This document shows positions 24,001 through 36,000 of a stretch of 64,000 nt of DNA, one piece after another. Each line of letters opens with the position of its first letter. The stretch's first letter is position 1. The position numbers were made by a program. The DNA comes from Pontiella sp. (GTDB lineage: Bacteria > Verrucomicrobiota > Kiritimatiellia > Kiritimatiellales > Pontiellaceae): positions 65,575-129,574 of the forward strand of contig JBNKHE010000010.1 of NCBI GenBank assembly GCA_050290185.1. The letters run 5' to 3'.

Positions 24001-27000
24001 TCAGGAAAATTTGTCTGCGAAAATTGCTTAACCGCGTCATCGCTTCAGAAAGCCATTCGAGAAAATATTGTGCCGGACCACAACTGTTCTTTCTGTGAAA
24101 ATGACCGTGCGGCATCACTCGATTATCTGATGGAACATCACATCATGCCTGCAATCTGGAATGAATATACGGAGGCGGTCAATGAGCTCAATTGGGTTGA
24201 CGGGGAGTGGCTTGGAGAGTATCAGGACACGTATGATTTGATCGAAGATGTCATCGGCGGATATGACGGAACGGATTTTGGGGATTTGACCGAAACCATT
24301 CGTGATTCAATCCGTGATACCCATTGGTGTCGTCAAAACTATTATGGCGTTCAACCTGAAGAAACACGTTTGTTTCGATGGCGCGGGTTTGCTCACATTG
24401 TTAAGCACACGACCCGCTATTTCTTTGGGGATACCATTATTGAAAAAGAACCATCCGAGCAGGATGAAACCGATATTCTTGGATTTTTGAATGATCTAAA
24501 AGAGATTATTGAACGTGAACTACTCTGGAATATGCGCCCGAAGACGGTCATTTTTCGGGCTCGGGTTGATAAAACGAAGCATACCTCTATTCAGGAGCTT
24601 GGAGCGCCACCCTATCATAAAGCTTGTTATTCAAACCGTATGACTCCCGCAGGGATTTCAATGCTCTATGGGGCCTTAGATGCGCAAACTGCCAAGGCAG
24701 AGGTCGGTGAGCTTAAGTCCGATAAAATAATGACTCTAGCATCTATACGCCTCATTCCTGAAATTCAAGTAGTGGACTTTACTCGATTACCCCCACCGCC
24801 GGACTTCTTCGATTTGGACAAGAGTTCTCGCCGCTATCTCTGTCAGTTTTTATGGAGTTTTGTTAAAGAGCTTGCCGCTCCAATTGAAAAGGATGGTCGA
24901 GAACATATTCAGTACGTCCCGACACAGGTGCTTACCGAGTATCTAAAAACCACGTTATTAGTTAATGGCATGATTTTCCCAAGCTCACGGTATGCGGGTG
25001 GAAAATGTGTTGTTCTGTGGAGTAAAGATTTTGTACCGAATAGGAGTGGTAATTCTTCAGGATTAGAATTGGTAGATGCTGAGTATTATGGCTTGGACTT
25101 GATTAAAGTCTGATGGAGGTTCAGTGTTTCTAGGAATCGAAAAGGATAAGGGATTGTTTTACGAGGGCGGTGATCTGTTCACGGGGATGCGCGCCGTATT
25201 GCCTCCGCCACATCTTTTCGATATGCAGATTGGCGATACCCCTGCCACTGCGCTGAAGAATCTGATCGAAGCCGAAAAGGCCGAATCAAAGAAGTTTCTT
25301 TTCCGAGAGGATGGTTTCGATCCGGTTTCAATGGTCCGCCGTGGCAGAATATATCAGCCGTATGTTGAGCAGCCTAATGAATGTCGTGTAGCTCCGATTG
25401 ATACGCTTGATCGCGTCCAGAGCAACCCCTTTTATCCAGAAGGACCGGTGCTTATCAAGCGACTACACACCTATCAGCCGTATGCACTGAGTCTCAATGC
25501 TCCGGAGAATAAATATGCCATCATCGGGACGCAGACCGCCTATTCCCTCTGGCGCATTGTTTCCATAGACCAGATGTATCTGAACGATGAGCTGTTAACG
25601 TTGCGTCCCCTCCATTCGATGGGTGCTCTGCCTGATCTTGAATTGAGCAATGTTCCCGAGCCGTGGAAAACCAAGGTATCGGATACGGTTGGCAAAGTCA
25701 TCGATGCCATGCACCACGCGAATGCCGACTCCATCATCGAGCTATGCCGCCACGCCGCGGCGGCGGCCCTCTTTGCCCATTTCCATGAAGACATTAAAAA
25801 GTTGAGCGGAACCGATCTTGGCAACCTCGCCGATGATGCCGGCAAAGATGGCAAACGGATTGTCGCGAGCTGCGGAAAAATCATTGCCGACCTTCATTCC
25901 CGAATAAAACCCAATATGCAGGTTGAGCTTGATCTCCGGCCCATTTCCGACCGCGACGCCGAACTCGCCATCTACAGTCTCTCCTGCATTCTCAGCGATT
26001 TGAATTTTACAAACGAAGGGCAATAGAGAGTCGGTATGGATTATGCACCGCAAATTTTGGAGATGCTGGCCCAGGGGAATGGCCTCAAGGCATTGCAGAT
26101 TTCCATGGAACTTGGCATAGACCGGAAGCTGGTAAAGTCCATTCTCTACGGACGGCTGAAGGGACAGGTCCGGCAGGATAAAAGCTATCGCTGGCATTTT
26201 GCTTCTGCGACACACTCTGAGACACAAACGTCCTTCTGGAGTAATTATTCCTCAAACGTATAGTAAATGTTTCCAAAACGTTTTGGTATTTTGATGTTCA
26301 TTTACCATATCTCCTTGGTTGGAGAGTGTTGCAAGTTTCACATAGGGAGTTAGATGTGATAATCGACGGGGGGTGGCACGCATTTTGCCTATGCGATGAC
26401 TACGTTGGTTAATATTTAAAATACGCGGAGACTAACATGATGCATAAAATCAACAGGAAGCGTTGGGCGGTTAGTGGATTTGTAATATTGGCGCTCGTTT
26501 CAATCTTTATCGGGGGATGTTTCCGGCACGATGATAACGTATCTATGGCACAAATTAGCACACTTGATAAAGTGCGTAAGACCGGTGAGTTGCATGTAGG
26601 ATATTTTCTATTCGAACCAACAATTATGCAGGACAAAAATGGGAAGCTTAATGGTGTTTTCATTGATTTGATTGAATCCATAGGCAAAGCGCTTGATGCA
26701 AAAGTTATCTATCACAATGTGGATTTAGCAAATTTCGTTGCAGGACTTCAGTCGCAACAATATGACGTCTCCATTGGTGCTACATTTGCAACCCCCCAGC
26801 GAGCGACAGCTGTTGCATTTACCAGCCCCATCTTTTATTGCGGATATACTGGTGTTGTGAAACCTGAAGAGGTTGGCAAATATAATACATGGCAGGATAT
26901 GGATAAGAAAGGCACTAGGGTTGCTGTGAAGCAAGGAAGTGCTATTGATGATTTTGTGCGCGAGAATTTTAGAAACGCAACTATTGTACGTCTGCAAGGT

Positions 27001-33000: not shown

Positions 33001-36000
33001 CAAATGGGTATTATCTCTCATGCTCGCACTTGCACATGAACTACGCATACTCTCGACGACTCTCAGGGGGGGGGAATTGCGTTTTCTGTGTTTAATAGTC
33101 GGAGCGGTGGCAAATTTTACAACAGAAGGCCGTGCATTCCTGCGTGAAGAATGTCGGCTCGAAGAAGATAATGAGATTGAAGCGATGATTCAAAAAGCTG
33201 AGAGAGGCACTGGCCACTCATTAGACGGATGGTGGGGTAATTTCAAGTTGGCTCAATCCGATATTCGCATGTATCTTGAAGACAAAATTACAGAAGTTAG
33301 AAAACAGCTAGGATCAGTATCGGACTAGGAAACTACCTTATGGAAAACCACCCCCACGGTCGCCACGTAACCAGACAAGAATTCTTCTACGTCCTTCAGG
33401 ACAACTACGATGAACATGCTGAGGTCTCTATTCCTGGTTATCTCAATATGCACACTGAAATGGAGCAGTTTGCGAGTCGCAGGTGGAATGTATCTGCGCC
33501 ACTAAGGATTTTGGATCTCGGCACAGGCACAGGAAAAACAGTTGAACTCCTCCTTGATCATTTCCCGCAGAGCACTGCGGTTGCCGTCGACATTTTCGAC
33601 GAGATGTTGAACCATGCCCAAATCCGTCTTTGCAAGTACGGAAACCGGGTTGAACTGCGCAAAGGGGATTTCTCCGATATGTTACTTGAGCAGGGATATG
33701 ATTTGTGTGTCTCTGCGCTCGCGATCCACCATCAGAATCCTCAAGGTAAAAGAGATCTGTTCAGTCGCATATACCAGTCGCTGATGCCTGGTGGTTGCTT
33801 TTGCATGATCGATTGGATCAAATTTGACGATCCAAGAGAGGAGGGTGCCGCTCTCGAGGCAGCGGAAGTGCATGTCCGGAGCGCAGTCCCAGACAAAATC
33901 GCCGACCAGTGGGTCGAGCACTGGCGAGAACTCAACATCCCGGACACAGCAGAAAATATGTGTCAATGGCTCAGAGATGCTGGATTTTCATTTGTTTTTT
34001 GCCCCATTCATCATTATGGGATGGCACTTATATACGCCATAAAAGAATCATGAGTGCTGACGGATCAAAGCCTCTTGCTGATGTTGTGACGGTAAGTGCT
34101 CCTGAAGAGGGTTGCCGTGACATCAATCTCGACAATGCCGCTACAACTCCACCGTTACTTGCAGTGGAAAAGGCTGTTCACGCAGTTATGCACTCATATG
34201 GGAGCGTTCATCGGGGATCTGGTTCTCTATCTCGTATCTCTACCTATATTCTGGAACGTGCTCGACAACGTATCTTCGAGTTTGCAGGCGGGCACAATAG
34301 GGATGACACCATTATTTTTGGACACAATTCAACAACCTGCATGAATATTCTTGCACGCCGAATGGCGCAAACTTATGGAGAGGGATTCTGTGCAGTTAGC
34401 TCTGTTGCGGAGCATACTAGCAACTTACTTCCATGGCTACGATGGGCTTCCGTAGTTCGCTGTCGCCTTACGCAAGATGGCGATTGGGACCTAGATCACC
34501 TAGATCACCTTCTTGCGCAACCCAATCGACCACGAGTTGTTGCCATCACATCTGCCTCGAACGTTACCGGTCGCTTAACAAACGTTGATGATGTAGCGCG
34601 TTTAGCCCATGAGTATGGTATCCCTATAGCAGTAGATGCTTCACAGTTTGTTGCCCATCGATGCTTGAGCAAGGCACGAAGCGGGAGTAGTGATCTTTGG
34701 GATTTTGTAGTTTTTGCAGGGCATAAAATGTATGCGCCATATGGCGTAGGAGTATTGGTAGGACCTGCCAAGTGGTTTTCTTCAGGGTGGCCTGATCATC
34801 CTGGTGGCGGAACAATATCAATGATAAATGGAGACCAAATCGCATGGTCACCCTTGCCATATCGTGAGGAGGGAGGTACTCCAAATTACCCAGGTATTGT
34901 TGCTATAGCATCCGCCGCTGAGGAAATAGAAAACATAGGGTTTGAGCGCATAGAAGCTCATGAAGCTTCGCTTTTATCAACGGCAGCGGAAGTCTTTGGC
35001 GCACTTAAAGAAGTGATGCTTTTTCGTCCCCTAGATCGCCAAAGCACAAAATGGTTGCCAGTATTTCCGTTTTCTGTTCATGGGTATGAGCACCAATATG
35101 TGGGGAATTATTTAGGGCATACTAAAAATATCGCAGTAAGAACTGGCCATGTATGTCAGCACGAGTTCGTACGTAAACTGCTAGGAGTTTCCGATTTAAA
35201 GCGTAATGAATTATTCGAGGCAGCAAAGCATGGTAACCTTAATGGAATGTATGGCGTCATACGTGCTAGTTGTGGATTGACCAATACAATTGCTGACATA
35301 AAGTCGCTTGGCATGGCACTCGAAGAGCTTTTGCTCGAAAGAAAAACATCTAAAGTTGATTTTGTTGAAAAACCGGTTGTGAATATCCCTCATGAAACTC
35401 TTTCTAAACTTCCATGGTTGGTTTAATCGATAAAAGATGAATCTTCGCTCTTTCGCACGTCATCCTGCTAATAATCGAAAAACGTTTGTAAAACATTTCG
35501 ATACTACGACCTAACGATGATGCAACGAAAAGATTACATATCGGATACGTTCTGATACCCGTATGTAATAACTAATTCTGCATAATGGTCTTGCAGTTAT
35601 CGTTCAACGTTTGCGGTTCGTACACACGCCTCCATGGCACAGATCCTTCTATGGGACTGTTGCAATTAATAGCAAACCAGCATGTTAGGAGGGTGGTCAT
35701 GAAAGAAATTATCAAGGTAGTTGGGGTTATATTCGATAAAGTAAACAGCGAAGTTGGCGTCGTTACTGTTCTGTCTCTTTTAGTTGTAGCTCTTGCATTA
35801 TGGGTAGTGCGCGAAGCTATTAAATCCAGCAATCGCCGATCAAATAAAGAATAAATTGACTAATGGACAGTGTCGCTAATAGAACCAATGTTGGTGGCAC
35901 TGTTCACATTTTCTCCGGCACATACCGTCGTTGTGTATGCGTTGCGAGAAATGTATGTGGCCGACTATCAATTCGGTGGTGATTTGCACTCAAGTTTGGA

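What a model noticed while it worked through the whole genome (the two positions that open the first line are those of the whole stretch)
26366..35426. Mobile sigma-54 cassette: new cysteine-rich cytoplasmic sensor kinase with an ABC importer, a methyltransferase and a cy [...]
Inside an integrative island lies a tight 7-gene block (g02689-g02695): amino-acid-type binding protein, permease, ATPase, an 889-aa protein without any Pfam family, a sigma-54 activator without receiver domain, a SAM methyltransferase and a class-V PLP enzyme, preceded by a textbook -24/-12 promoter. The 889-aa protein folds C-terminally as a histidine kinase (helix with invariant His678 + ATP-binding domain) behind a 630-aa soluble part with eight invariant cysteines, so I read it as a new Fe-S-, metal- or thiol-sensing kinase that with its partner activator switches on uptake, C-S cleavage and methylation of a cysteine-derived (S or Se) compound. 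New would be the sensor domain and the cas [...]
Evidence so far: Gene order and overlaps call 21. g02692: 16 relatives in 5.8 billion proteins, none with a Pfam domain except one 1108-aa form fused to the sigma-54 AAA+ domain. AF2 on 14 sequences: pLDDT 77.5, pTM 0.74; call 67), Foldseek E 3e-5 to 4gcz; invariant H678 and C39, C68, C74, C102, C163, C168, C196, C220. Same genes in the same order in a Terriglobia MAG (L021; binding protein 64% identical) and, without the activator, in a Paludibacter MAG (L022). Promoter TGGCACGCATTTTGCC at C10:91948, 47 nt before the first gene; TGGCAAATCGCGTGCTT in L021; rpoN = g00477. Binding protein best hit YxeM of B. subtilis (swissprot. [...]
(Added by a program. 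Inside this text positions count along the whole contig: contig position 65,575 is position 1 of the stretch shown here. "Call 12" and the like, gene names such as g00115 and contig names such as C1 are that model's own, and its searches are not shown. The text may have been shortened before it was handed on; [...] marks where a part breaks off. The agent that wrote the report below was given it as the finding of a first reader that could run no searches.)

Follow-up and report, generated by a model that had tools for sequence, protein, structure and literature searches.

The report
Mobile sigma-54 cassette, new cysteine-rich sensor
A seven-gene block on an integrating island couples an amino-acid-type importer, a sulfur-releasing enzyme and a methyltransferase to a sigma-54 activator and a rare, unclassified sensor protein with eight fixed cysteines, whose kinase-like end looks unable to bind ATP in the usual way.

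Summary
The seven-gene block, the exact -24/-12 promoter and the 889-aa orphan are real. The orphan is soluble. Its roughly 650-aa N-terminal module matches no Pfam or NCBIfam family and no solved structure by sequence. Eight cysteines are conserved in 35-45 relatives.

The partner activator does have a divergent receiver, with DD, Asp87, Thr119 and Lys144 (hhalign 84%). Sensor-AAA+ fusions, and forms with a canonical GHKL domain, show that the N-module is an input domain.

A triple 5-mer array at 11-nt steps occurs once in the whole genome, about 95 nt upstream of the promoter. It recurs in both other activator-bearing loci.

The cassette lies in a 28.3-kb element flanked by 60-nt tRNA-derived repeats. 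It was found in 1 of 401 genomes of its phylum.

The PLP enzyme keeps the SufS catalytic Lys and Cys. The methyltransferase is BelI/CysG-like. Substrate and signal remain unknown.

The parts
8510..8569 (-). Left 60-nt direct repeat. It is the 3' part of a tRNA read on the minus strand, and it borders the island that carries the cassette. The integrase gene follows at 8670-10031.
26255..26281 (+). Candidate enhancer (UAS): three 5-mers, AACGT/AATGT/AACGT, at 11-nt steps. It overlaps the palindrome CCAAAACGTTTTGG (26273-26286).
   Evidence: The pattern [AT][AC][CT]GT-N6 x3 occurs once in 7.15 million genome positions, and that one occurrence is here. It occurs once each in L002 and L005, upstream of the binding-protein gene, and not at all in L006. 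Repeats were also seen. The pattern was defined after seeing these loci.
26374..26389 (+). Sigma-54 type -24/-12 promoter, TGGCACGCATTTTGCC.
   Evidence: rpoN is in the genome.
26437..27336 (+). Solute-binding protein (SBP_bac_3) with an N-terminal hydrophobic signal and the sequence IGGC.
   Evidence: It is 69%, 70% and 53% identical to the L002, L005 and L006 proteins.
27390..28073 (+). ABC permease of the polar-amino-acid type.
   Evidence: The best NCBIfam match is GlnP, E 6.1e-43, below the curated cut-off.
28070..28873 (+). ABC ATPase.
28866..31535 (+). 889-aa soluble sensor. It has an N-module with eight conserved cysteines (about residues 1-625, with invariant H560), a DHp-like hairpin (helices 632-689 and 693-708, with H678), and a CA-fold domain (721-889) that lacks the ATP-binding motifs.
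31538..33328 (+). Sigma-54 activator. It has a divergent receiver-like domain (1-150: D7, D8, D87, T119, K144), an AAA+ domain (187-353, GAFTGA at 261) with its lid (358-429), and an unclassified C-terminal 165 aa.
33340..34053 (+). Class I SAM methyltransferase, BelI/CysG-like. It has the HH motif, and Asn at the position of CysG Asp191.
   Evidence: PMC11408123 (passages read).
34050..35426 (+). SufS-like class V PLP enzyme. It has the PLP lysine (HKMYAP) and the catalytic Cys loop (RTGHVCQ).
35864..35906 (+). Terminator-like hairpin with 18 pairs, the first strong one after the last gene.
36830..36889 (-). Right 60-nt direct repeat, 93% identical to the left copy. It is followed by a second integrase gene at 37052-38647.

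Best explanation
The block is a self-activating sigma-54 operon carried by a 28.3-kb island that integrated at a tRNA gene.

Shown:
- The seven genes are translationally coupled behind one exact -24/-12 promoter.
- A phased triple 5-mer array, unique in the genome, lies about 95 nt upstream.
- The host has rpoN.
- The 889-aa protein is soluble. Its large N-module has eight conserved cysteines. It also has a DHp-like hairpin with an invariant His and a CA-fold domain.
- The next gene encodes a divergent receiver, an AAA+ domain with GAFTGA, and an unclassified C-terminus.

Inferred:
- The N-module is the input domain. Its cysteines probably hold two four-Cys metal or Fe-S sites.
- It reads an intracellular consequence of the imported compound. 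My preferred candidate is sulfur released by the SufS-like enzyme.
- The signal passes by contact between the DHp helix and the receiver to the activator. The activator binds the 5-mer array and opens the sigma-54 promoter, which raises its own synthesis and that of the importer and enzymes.
- The CA-fold domain has lost the Mg-binding Asn and the adenine-binding Asp. I therefore think the sensor is not an ordinary ATP-driven autokinase. More likely it sets the receiver's state as a His-dependent phosphatase or phosphotransfer partner, or by stoichiometric binding, as NifL, DivL and RetS do in their own ways.
- The cargo imports a polar amino-acid-like compound, cleaves a C-S or C-Se bond through an enzyme persulfide, and methylates a product.
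For: Operon and promoter:
- Gene layout and domains.
- Promoter. rpoN and about 7 other activators are present in the genome.
- The triple array occurs once in the whole genome, and once each in L002 and L005 upstream of the same gene. It is absent from L006, which has no sigma-54 activator.

Sensor:
- No 19-residue window has a hydrophobicity above 1.6.
- AF2 gives pLDDT 88.5 and pTM 0.86.
- H678 is present in 26/26 family members.
- The eight cysteines are conserved.

The N-module is an input domain:
- It is fused directly to the sigma-54 AAA+ domain in P0018 and P0061.
- It is joined to real HATPase_c domains in P0038, P0062 and P0071.
- It is joined to a canonical-looking GHKL domain in twelve proteins of 1175-1412 aa.

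Loss of the ATP site:
- The Mg-Asn position is Q in 19, E in 5 and N in 1 of 25.
- The G1-Asp position is P in 11, A in 3, D in 3 and N in 2, among others.
- R803, R852 and G853 are nearly invariant instead.
- An HMM of the genome's own histidine kinases scores the family no better than E 0.11 (P0001 at E 2.5), but scores P0071 at 2.4e-9.

Receiver:
- D7, D8, D87, T/S119 and K144 are invariant in 3/3 activators.
- hhalign against 33 receiver domains of the same genome gives Prob 83.8%, E 7.8e-6. The control against histidine kinases gives 0.4%.
- All listed nearest Atlas clusters are PF00072, with scores of 0.85-0.87. That is a lead only.

Conserved company:
- The importer, methyltransferase and sensor are together in window, L002, L005 and L006.
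- The methyltransferase is next to the sensor in 6/6 loci.
- The PLP gene is present in 5/6 loci.
- The PLP Lys and Cys loop are kept in 4/4 sequences.

Mobility.
Against: - The invariant His and a receiver with all five phospho-acceptor residues fit a working phosphorelay at least as well as a partner switch. The operon encodes no other kinase.
- The assignment of positions 802 and 831 to the N-box Asn and the G1 Asp rests on sequence alignment to the long forms and on my reading of motif order. It does not rest on a superposed structure.
- The fold of the N-module was never compared with known folds, because every fold search was filled by the CA domain. Metal or Fe-S binding is inferred from conservation alone.
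- No canonical -24/-12 site was found upstream in L002; the best candidate matches 8 of 12 positions.
- The L005 activator has lost GAFTGA, although that locus has a promoter-like site.
- The activator's C-terminus is unlike the Fis-type HTH of six other activators of the genome, so DNA binding to the array is assumed.
- The methyltransferase's closest solved relatives methylate carboxylates of alkylmalates. That fits poorly with a simple 'methylate the released S or Se' scheme.
- No expression data exist.
Confidence: 0.5

Rival explanations
1. This is a classical two-component relay. The 889-aa protein is an active sensor histidine kinase. It autophosphorylates His678 from ATP and phosphorylates Asp87 of the activator.
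For: - His678 is present in 26/26 family members.
- Some members have a textbook H-box, for example AHEIRN in P0008, which weakly matches the genome's HK model.
- The receiver keeps DD, D, T and K in 3/3 activators.
- No other kinase is encoded in the operon.
- The conserved D798, Q802, R803, R852 and G853 show that the pocket is under selection.
Against: - The Mg-binding Asn is present in only 1 of 25 sequences.
- There is no conserved G1 Asp and no DxGxG or GxGxG motif.
- The stretch where kinases carry the ATP lid is short, about 20 residues.
- HATPase_c is not detected in any of the 26 family members, even at E 0.1.
- Distant relatives of the same module do keep the canonical motifs. The loss is therefore specific to this family.
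Confidence: 0.25
2. The two enzymes serve the sensor rather than a catabolic pathway. The SufS-like enzyme loads sulfane sulfur or an Fe-S cluster onto the eight-cysteine module. The methyltransferase makes or modifies the ligand or the protein. The imported compound is the signal. Import, conversion and sensing thus form one pathway with exchangeable outputs.
For: - The methyltransferase and PLP enzyme travel with the N-module whatever the output. The outputs are a sigma-54 activator in window and L002, and a receiver-HerA-like ATPase in L006. The methyltransferase and PLP genes also stand next to the module in L007.
- None of the seven proteins matches a SufE/SufU-type family in Pfam or NCBIfam, although type II desulfurases normally need such an acceptor (established knowledge).
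- The binding protein is the most conserved part, at 53-70% identity.
Against: - There is no direct evidence of contact between the enzyme and the sensor.
- L005 has the sensor without the PLP gene.
- Only six loci are known, and two of them are fragments.
Confidence: 0.15
3. The cassette is an anti-phage or conflict system, or part of one, as its neighbours on the island suggest.
For: - The island carries type I restriction-modification genes, a Fic gene and a HEPN/RES gene.
- PADLOC gives hits to MADS models: the methyltransferase to mad2 at 3.5e-20, the ABC ATPase to mad3 at 2.9e-27, and the L006 receiver-HerA protein to mad8 at 7.7e-21.
- L002 has a CHAT-TPR protein nearby.
Against: - The sensor and the long forms hit no PADLOC model.
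- The MADS models were built from HHpred alignments, and mad2 is a DNA methylase. MAD6-8 are the mandatory parts of the system (preprint 10.1101/2023.03.30.534895, passages read). The hits fall on generic P-loop and SAM-binding domains.
- The methyltransferase is a 237-aa small-molecule type, closest to BelI and CysG.
- A lipoprotein-type binding protein with an importer is not a defence feature. This last point is inference.
Confidence: 0.05

Closest known systems
NtrB/NtrC-type two-component control of sigma-54 promoters, including the NtrC-dependent amino-acid importers glnHPQ and hisJQMP of enterobacteria (recalled from established knowledge)
   Same: Both have a sensor with a DHp-CA fold encoded next to a receiver-AAA+ activator. 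Both have a -24/-12 promoter and an upstream enhancer in front of a polar-amino-acid ABC importer.
   Different: Here the CA domain lacks the ATP-binding motifs. The receiver is too divergent for Pfam. The activator has no Fis-type HTH. The input is a new 650-aa module with eight conserved cysteines.
[not shown]
   Same: A GHKL-fold sensor protein that is not a kinase controls a sigma-54 activator by protein contact in response to redox or metabolic state.
   Different: NifL acts on the NifA GAF/AAA+ domains, and NifA has no receiver. NifL senses through PAS-FAD. There is no sequence relationship to the N-module.
The non-canonical histidine kinases DivL (4q20) and RetS (6dk7, 7n0e)
   Same: These are among the best structural matches to residues 661-889. 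They are HK-fold proteins that signal by binding partners rather than by ordinary autophosphorylation. That description of how they work is recalled.
   Different: DivL has lost the His (Tyr instead) but is not known to have lost its ATP motifs. Here the His is invariant and the ATP motifs are lost.
SufS/CsdA type II cysteine desulfurases and selenocysteine lyases
   Same: The sequence matches at E about 1e-40. The PLP Lys and the catalytic Cys loop are kept.
   Different: The score of 229.7 bits is below the SufS cut-off of 475.1. No SufE, SufU or CsdE partner is encoded in the cassette.
BelI and CysG, Ca-dependent carboxyl O-methyltransferases of belactosin and cystargolide synthesis (PMC11408123)
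   Same: They are the best solved relatives, at E 1.5e-26 and 9.6e-23. The HH metal motif is conserved in 6/6 cassette methyltransferases.
   Different: The third metal ligand is Asn instead of Asp191 in 6/6. No beta-lactone pathway genes are present. The substrate is unknown.
B. subtilis yxe operon and E. coli tcyJ-dcyD-tcyLN
   Same: A polar-amino-acid-type ABC importer is encoded together with an enzyme that removes sulfur from a cysteine derivative.
   Different: The enzymes and regulators are different. I ran no test of relationship beyond weak NCBIfam hits: the cystine-binding protein model scored E 6.5e-18, at 64.9 bits against a cut-off of 312.

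Membership tests
Sensor histidine kinase (DHp + CA/HATPase_c) | A helical hairpin (DHp) carrying a conserved phospho-accepting His | tested here: met
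   [not shown]
Sensor histidine kinase (DHp + CA/HATPase_c) | CA domain with the Bergerat alpha/beta sandwich fold | tested here: met
   [not shown]
Sensor histidine kinase (DHp + CA/HATPase_c) | N-box Asn that binds Mg-ATP | tested here: not met
   Position 802 is Q in 19, E in 5 and N in 1 of 25. The position was assigned by alignment to the long forms, which carry ENIIRN.
Sensor histidine kinase (DHp + CA/HATPase_c) | G1 (DxGxG) Asp and the G2 glycine motif of the ATP lid | tested here: not met
   Position 831 is P in 11, A in 3, D in 3 and N in 2, among others. Only R852-G853 is conserved. HATPase_c is detected in 0 of 26 family members at E 0.1. The HMM of the genome's own kinases scores the family no better than E 0.11.
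Sensor histidine kinase (DHp + CA/HATPase_c) | Autophosphorylation from ATP | not testable with these tools
   This needs a biochemical assay.
Bacterial enhancer-binding protein (sigma-54 activator) | AAA+ sigma-54 interaction domain with a GAFTGA loop | tested here: met
   PF00158 matches at E 1.7e-62 over 187-353. GAFTGA is at 261 and the Walker A motif at 214.
Bacterial enhancer-binding protein (sigma-54 activator) | C-terminal Fis-type helix-turn-helix | tested here: not met
   Pfam gives no HTH hit. hhalign against the C-termini of six other activators of the genome gives Prob 0.1%.
Bacterial enhancer-binding protein (sigma-54 activator) | Host sigma-54 and a -24/-12 target promoter | tested here: met
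   rpoN is at C1:554782-555258. TGGCACGCATTTTGC is at 26374.
Response-regulator receiver domain (in the activator N-terminus) | Acidic pair after beta1, phospho-accepting Asp after beta3, Thr/Ser after beta4 and Lys after beta5 | tested here: met
   D7, D8, D87, T/S119 and K144 are invariant in 3/3 activators. hhalign aligns 77-147 to receiver positions 41-108 with D87, T119 and K144 in register, at Prob 83.8% and E 7.8e-6. The control gives 0.4%.
Response-regulator receiver domain (in the activator N-terminus) | Recognised by the family model PF00072 | tested here: not met
   There is no hit at E 0.01. The HMM of the genome's own receivers scores 1.3 bits. The nearest Atlas clusters are all PF00072, but at scores of 0.85-0.87.
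SufS-type (type II) cysteine desulfurase | PLP-binding Lys and a catalytic Cys on the C-terminal loop | tested here: met
   HKMYAP and R(T/S)GxxCQ are conserved in 4/4 cassette enzymes. Which motif corresponds to which residue is recalled from SufS.
SufS-type (type II) cysteine desulfurase | Scores as SufS; has a dedicated acceptor (SufE, SufU or CsdE) | tested here: not met
   TIGR01979 scores 229.7 bits against a cut-off of 475.1. None of the seven genes has an acceptor domain.
BelI/CysG-type metal-dependent O-methyltransferase | His-His-Asp metal-binding motif | tested here: inconclusive
   HH is conserved in 6/6. The Asp191 position is Asn in 6/6. The paper reports that CysG D191N keeps part of its activity (PMC11408123, passages read).
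Polar amino acid ABC importer | SBP_bac_3 binding protein with a signal sequence, a BPD_transp_1 permease and an ABC ATPase | tested here: met
   No equivalog cut-off was reached, so the substrate is not assigned.
MADS defence system | MAD6, MAD7 and MAD8 are mandatory; mad2 is a DNA methylase with a specificity partner | tested here: not met
   The only hits are domain-level ones to the mad2, mad3 and mad8 models. The definition comes from preprint 10.1101/2023.03.30.534895 (passages read).

The most novel reading that the evidence does not exclude
The eight-cysteine module is a new class of cytoplasmic input domain that has its own loading enzyme. The SufS-like desulfurase would pass sulfur, or a cluster built from it, directly onto the module. 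The cell would thereby sense flux of an imported sulfur or selenium amino acid. This 'import, convert, sense' unit would then be wired to interchangeable outputs: a sigma-54 activator through a kinase-dead HK fold, a fused AAA+ domain, or a receiver-HerA ATPase.
Probability: 0.15. Interest if true: 0.8.

Novelty: new variant of a known kind. Interest (0 to 1): 0.55.

Why it matters
The overall logic is familiar: a sigma-54 activator and a two-component-like partner control an importer operon. Three things are new.

1. The input module is large and confidently foldable. It has eight conserved cysteines and no family, and it is found in only 70 sequence clusters out of 1.84 billion.
2. The histidine-kinase fold keeps its His but has lost the ATP site, while its partner keeps a complete receiver. 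This makes it a clean natural case for asking how such proteins signal.
3. The module is consistently accompanied by an importer, a desulfurase-like enzyme and a BelI/CysG-like methyltransferase across three phyla.

If the cofactor and ligand were identified, this would add a new sensor type to the signalling repertoire. It would also probably reveal a sulfur or selenium amino-acid pathway that spreads on mobile islands.

Tried and rejected
- **Complex prediction**. I submitted the sensor core (625-889, two copies) with activator residues 1-185. The score was 0.25 against a mark of 0.32, so there is no verdict.
- **First AF2 run**. With five sequences the model was poor, at pLDDT 51.2.
- **Fold searches** (Foldseek pdb and viral, VIA pdb_via and pdb_via_wide). 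Only the kinase core appeared in the lists. I do not claim it is a new fold.
- **Sequence searches of solved structures**. Queries were A1, A3 and P0026. Nothing scored below E 0.03, and nothing was meaningful.
- **ESM Atlas on sensor residues 1-450**. The best score was 0.86, to zinc-ribbon clusters. That is below the level of a lead.
- **The search for homologous proteins on activator residues 1-186**. It found only the query itself.
- **First genome-contig scan with A1**. It found nothing.
- **Scan with A2**. It was repeated with A3.
- **Sequencing runs**. No RNA holder was listed.
- **Sigma-54 promoter in L002**. The best candidate matched only 8 of 12 positions.
- **Similarity of the activator C-terminus to the C-termini of P0018 and P0061**. 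None was found.
- **MADS membership**. Rejected.
- **Small ORFs after the PLP gene**, at 35585-35854 and 35870-36067. I judged them not to be genes: they have no homolog context, and I did not search them.
- **Literature** (two full-text searches). No paper described such a cassette. Only the listings were seen.

Full report
**What is there.** Seven genes on the + strand run from 26437 to 35426. Their junctions are either overlaps (28070/28073, 28866/28873, 34050/34053) or gaps of 2 to 53 nt. Pfam assigns them as follows:
- SBP_bac_3, E 6.4e-20
- BPD_transp_1, E 3.4e-23
- ABC_tran, E 5.4e-24
- nothing for the 889-aa protein
- Sigma54_activat (E 1.7e-62) with AAA_lid_14
- Methyltransf_25, E 1e-17
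- Aminotran_5, E 1.6e-69

NCBIfam gives no equivalog-level name to any of them. The best hits are a cystine-binding protein (64.9 bits against a cut-off of 312), GlnP, the SufS subfamily (229.7 bits against 475.1) and BioC.

TGGCACGCATTTTGC at 26374 is the only exact TGGCAC-N5-TTGC site in the window. It is one of 13 in the 3.58-Mb genome. The genome has rpoN and about seven other sigma-54 activators. An 18-pair hairpin at 35864-35906 is the first strong terminator-like site after the last gene.

**Mobility.** Two 60-nt direct repeats lie at 8510-8569 and 36830-36889 and are 93% identical. On the minus strand they read as the 3' part of a tRNA, from the anticodon loop to the CCA end. Each is followed by a tyrosine-integrase gene, at 8670 and at 37052. 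A third, shorter copy lies at 8248-8275. ARAGORN finds no whole tRNA gene in the window.

The 28.3-kb segment between the repeats carries type I restriction genes with a Fic gene, a HEPN/RES gene, and the cassette at its far end. G+C in the cassette is 0.43-0.49, against 0.54 for the genome. A profile of the sensor family found a match in 1 of 401 genomes of the same phylum. That one was the genome itself, and 0 of 7 congeners had a match.

**The sensor family.**
- *Size of the family.* The word-indexed search found 5 proteins. An exhaustive profile search of 1.84 billion cluster representatives found 70 at E <= 0.001, of which 47 were at E <= 1e-30.
- *Shared regions.* Mapping the profile on the hits shows that positions 16-442 and 540-665 form a module shared with proteins of other architectures.
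- *Fusions to the sigma-54 AAA+ domain.* P0018 (1108 aa) and the distant P0061 (987 aa) join the module directly to this domain.
- *Real HATPase_c domains.* P0038, P0062 and P0071 carry HATPase_c domains detectable by Pfam or by an HMM of this genome's kinases.
- *Long forms.* Twelve proteins of 1175-1412 aa continue with a canonical-looking H-box and N-box and a further C-terminal domain.
- *Conclusion.* The module is therefore an input domain.
- *Conserved residues.* Eight cysteines are conserved across all these forms: C39 35/36, C68 37/37, C74 38/38, C102 37/38, C163 42/42, C168 39/39, C196 44/44 and C220 45/45. H560 is present in 49/51.
- *Localisation.* The protein has no hydrophobic segment.
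- *Family and structure matches.* No Pfam family appears in the N-module of any of the 52 aligned members at E 0.1. No solved structure matches by sequence.

**Structure.** With 52 sequences AF2 gave pLDDT 88.5 and pTM 0.86. With five sequences it had given 51.2. Foldseek and VIA-align return only histidine-kinase cores:
- 4gcz_B, E 2.7e-5

All listed rows cover 704-889, so the N-module's fold was effectively not tested.

**Is it a kinase?**
- *For.* His678 is present in all 26 family members that reach that region.
- *Mg-Asn position.* The position that aligns with the Mg-binding Asn of the N-box is Q in 19, E in 5 and N in 1 of 25.
- *G1 Asp position.* The position of the G1 Asp is P in 11, A in 3, D in 3 and N in 2, among others.
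- *Glycine motifs.* No DxGxG or GxGxG motif exists.
- *What is conserved instead.* D798 (20/25), R803 (24/25), R852-G853 (25/25) and G865 (24/25) are conserved.
- *HMM test.* An HMM built from 26 kinases of the same genome detects P0071 (E 2.4e-9) and P0062 (E 2.7e-8). It scores no member of the 889-aa family better than E 0.11, and P0001 scores E 2.5.

The fold is that of a kinase, but the catalytic signature is not met. The motif-to-position assignment rests on sequence alignment and on recalled motif order, not on a superposition.

**The activator.** However, the three available activators (window, L002, L005) are 27-33% identical overall and share D7, D8, L85-L86-D87, R114-I115-x-L117, T/S119 and K144. 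That is the full receiver signature. Further tests:
- hhalign of this three-sequence block against 33 receiver domains of the same genome gives Prob 83.8%, E 7.8e-6. D87, T119 and K144 fall in register. The control against the kinase alignment gives 0.4%.
- The nearest ESM-Atlas clusters are all PF00072, at scores of 0.85-0.87. That is a lead only.
- GAFTGA is present at 261.
- The last 165 residues are unlike the Fis-type HTH of six other activators of the genome, at Prob 0.1%. They are also unlike the tails of P0018 and P0061.

**A candidate enhancer.** Upstream of the promoter lie AACGT, AATGT and AACGT at 11-nt steps (26255-26281), overlapping the palindrome CCAAAACGTTTTGG.
- The pattern [AT][AC][CT]GT-N6, three times, occurs once in both strands of the whole genome, at this place.
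- It occurs once in L002 (22.6 kb), 129 nt before the binding-protein gene.
- It occurs once in L005 (15.8 kb), 154 nt before that gene.
- It does not occur in L006.

I defined the pattern after seeing the loci, so the genome-wide count is the fairer control.

L005 also has TGGCAAATCGCGTGCT with the right GG/GC spacing. L002 has no convincing -24/-12 site; the best candidate matches 8 of 12 positions.

**Related loci.**
- *L002* (metagenome) has the same seven genes in the same order.
- *L005* (Terriglobia MAG) has six of them. The PLP gene is missing, and the activator has lost GAFTGA.
- *L006* (Paludibacter MAG) has, in order: the binding protein, the permease, an IS transposase, a B12-radical-SAM gene, the ABC ATPase, the methyltransferase, the PLP enzyme, a 1329-aa long-form sensor, two unknown genes and a receiver-HerA/TraG-like ATPase.
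- *L007* has the methyltransferase, the PLP enzyme and then the sensor.
- *L004* has the sensor followed by an ORF. The first 71 residues of that ORF resemble the activator's N-terminus, and the rest is the methyltransferase. This looks like a deletion.

Identities to the window proteins, in the order L002/L005/L006:

| Protein | L002 | L005 | L006 |
|---|---|---|---|
| Binding protein | 69% | 70% | 53% |
| Permease | 64% | 61% | 56% |
| ATPase | 48% | 40% | 42% |
| Sensor | 34% | 32% | 29% |
| Methyltransferase | 48% | 48% | 42% |
| PLP enzyme | 46% | absent | 42% |

The module was found in only 1 of 401 genomes in each of the phyla of L006 and L005. In each case that genome was the one already known.

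**The enzymes.** The PLP enzyme matches SufS/CsdB structures at about 1e-40. It keeps the PLP lysine and the Cys loop in 4/4 cassette copies. The methyltransferase's best solved relatives are BelI (E 1.5e-26) and CysG. These are Ca-dependent carboxyl O-methyltransferases with a His-His-Asp site (PMC11408123, passages read). HH is conserved in 6/6 cassette enzymes, and the Asp position is Asn in 6/6. PADLOC hits to MADS models are generic domain matches.

**Reading.** The regulatory architecture is well supported: an island-borne, self-activating sigma-54 operon with a sensor-activator pair of two-component ancestry and a new input module. Less certain is how the signal passes. I favour a non-autokinase role for the HK-fold domain, such as a phosphatase, a phosphotransfer partner or a binding switch. 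The invariant His and the intact receiver keep a true relay alive as the main rival. The cofactor, the signal and the substrate are inferred only. No RNA data were available, and two literature searches found no description of such a cassette (listings only).

Noticed in passing
window 8248-8275, 8510-8569, 36830-36889: Three copies of a tRNA 3' fragment lie on the minus strand, with anticodon loop CTCATAA. Two of them are each followed by an integrase gene. This suggests two islands integrated in tandem. No intact tRNA gene lies in the window, and the contig ends at window position 64000.
   Followed up: partly
window 14009-22180: A type I restriction-modification set is present: hsdR with DUF4145 and EcoEI_R_C domains, hsdM and hsdS. 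A Fic/DOC gene (17571-18689) is inserted between hsdR and hsdM.
   Followed up: no
window 23755-23860 and 25125-25230: A 106-nt direct repeat (95% identical) lies in front of the HEPN/RES-NTD1-RES gene (23947-25113) and at the start of the following 300-aa ORF, which has no family.
   Followed up: no
P0025-P0033, P0038, P0041, P0042, P0048, P0054; L006 9974-13963: Long forms of 1175-1412 aa carry the same eight-cysteine module. They continue with a canonical-looking GHKL domain (H-box ARNMSHNIGSH, N-box ILENIIRNTAKH). A C-terminal domain follows, with the motifs VIDERIQ, VIHLGIIEKL and ITSGRG. By eye this looks receiver-like, with His where the Asp would be. In L006 the neighbouring gene encodes a receiver-HerA/TraG-like ATPase.
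   Followed up: partly
L010, L011, L012, L014, L015: Proteins of 1020-1356 aa in other Bacteroidota and in genomes of the L005 phylum match only positions 636-832 of the profile, which is the GHKL part of the long forms. They seem to be the same output module behind different input domains.
   Followed up: no
L004 1692-2453: A chimeric ORF begins like the activator (MNLVYVDDQ..., 38% identity over 71 residues) and continues as the methyltransferase from residue 50. It is probably a deletion derivative of the cassette.
   Followed up: partly
L005 12486-14393: The Terriglobia activator has lost the GAFTGA loop, and the PLP gene is missing from the locus. The triple 5-mer array (GCTACGT three times) and a -24/-12-like site are still there.
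   Followed up: partly
window 50173-56940: A 2255-aa ORF has SpvB, TcdB-middle, FG-GAP, RHS-repeat and DUF4329 domains, which is an RHS/Tc-like polymorphic toxin architecture. It is preceded by large Laminin_G/PA14/TSP3 proteins. I only scanned it against Pfam.
   Followed up: no
window 10896-10912 and 11006-11022: A perfect 17-nt palindromic repeat, TTCCACGCACCGTGGAA, occurs twice, 110 nt apart, just after the 287-aa ORF that follows the first integrase gene.
   Followed up: no
window 37052-42665: The second island begins with an integrase gene. It also carries a weak NaeI-like ORF (40556-41683) and a terminase-small-subunit-like ORF (41817-42665). This hints at a phage-derived or satellite-like element.
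   Followed up: no
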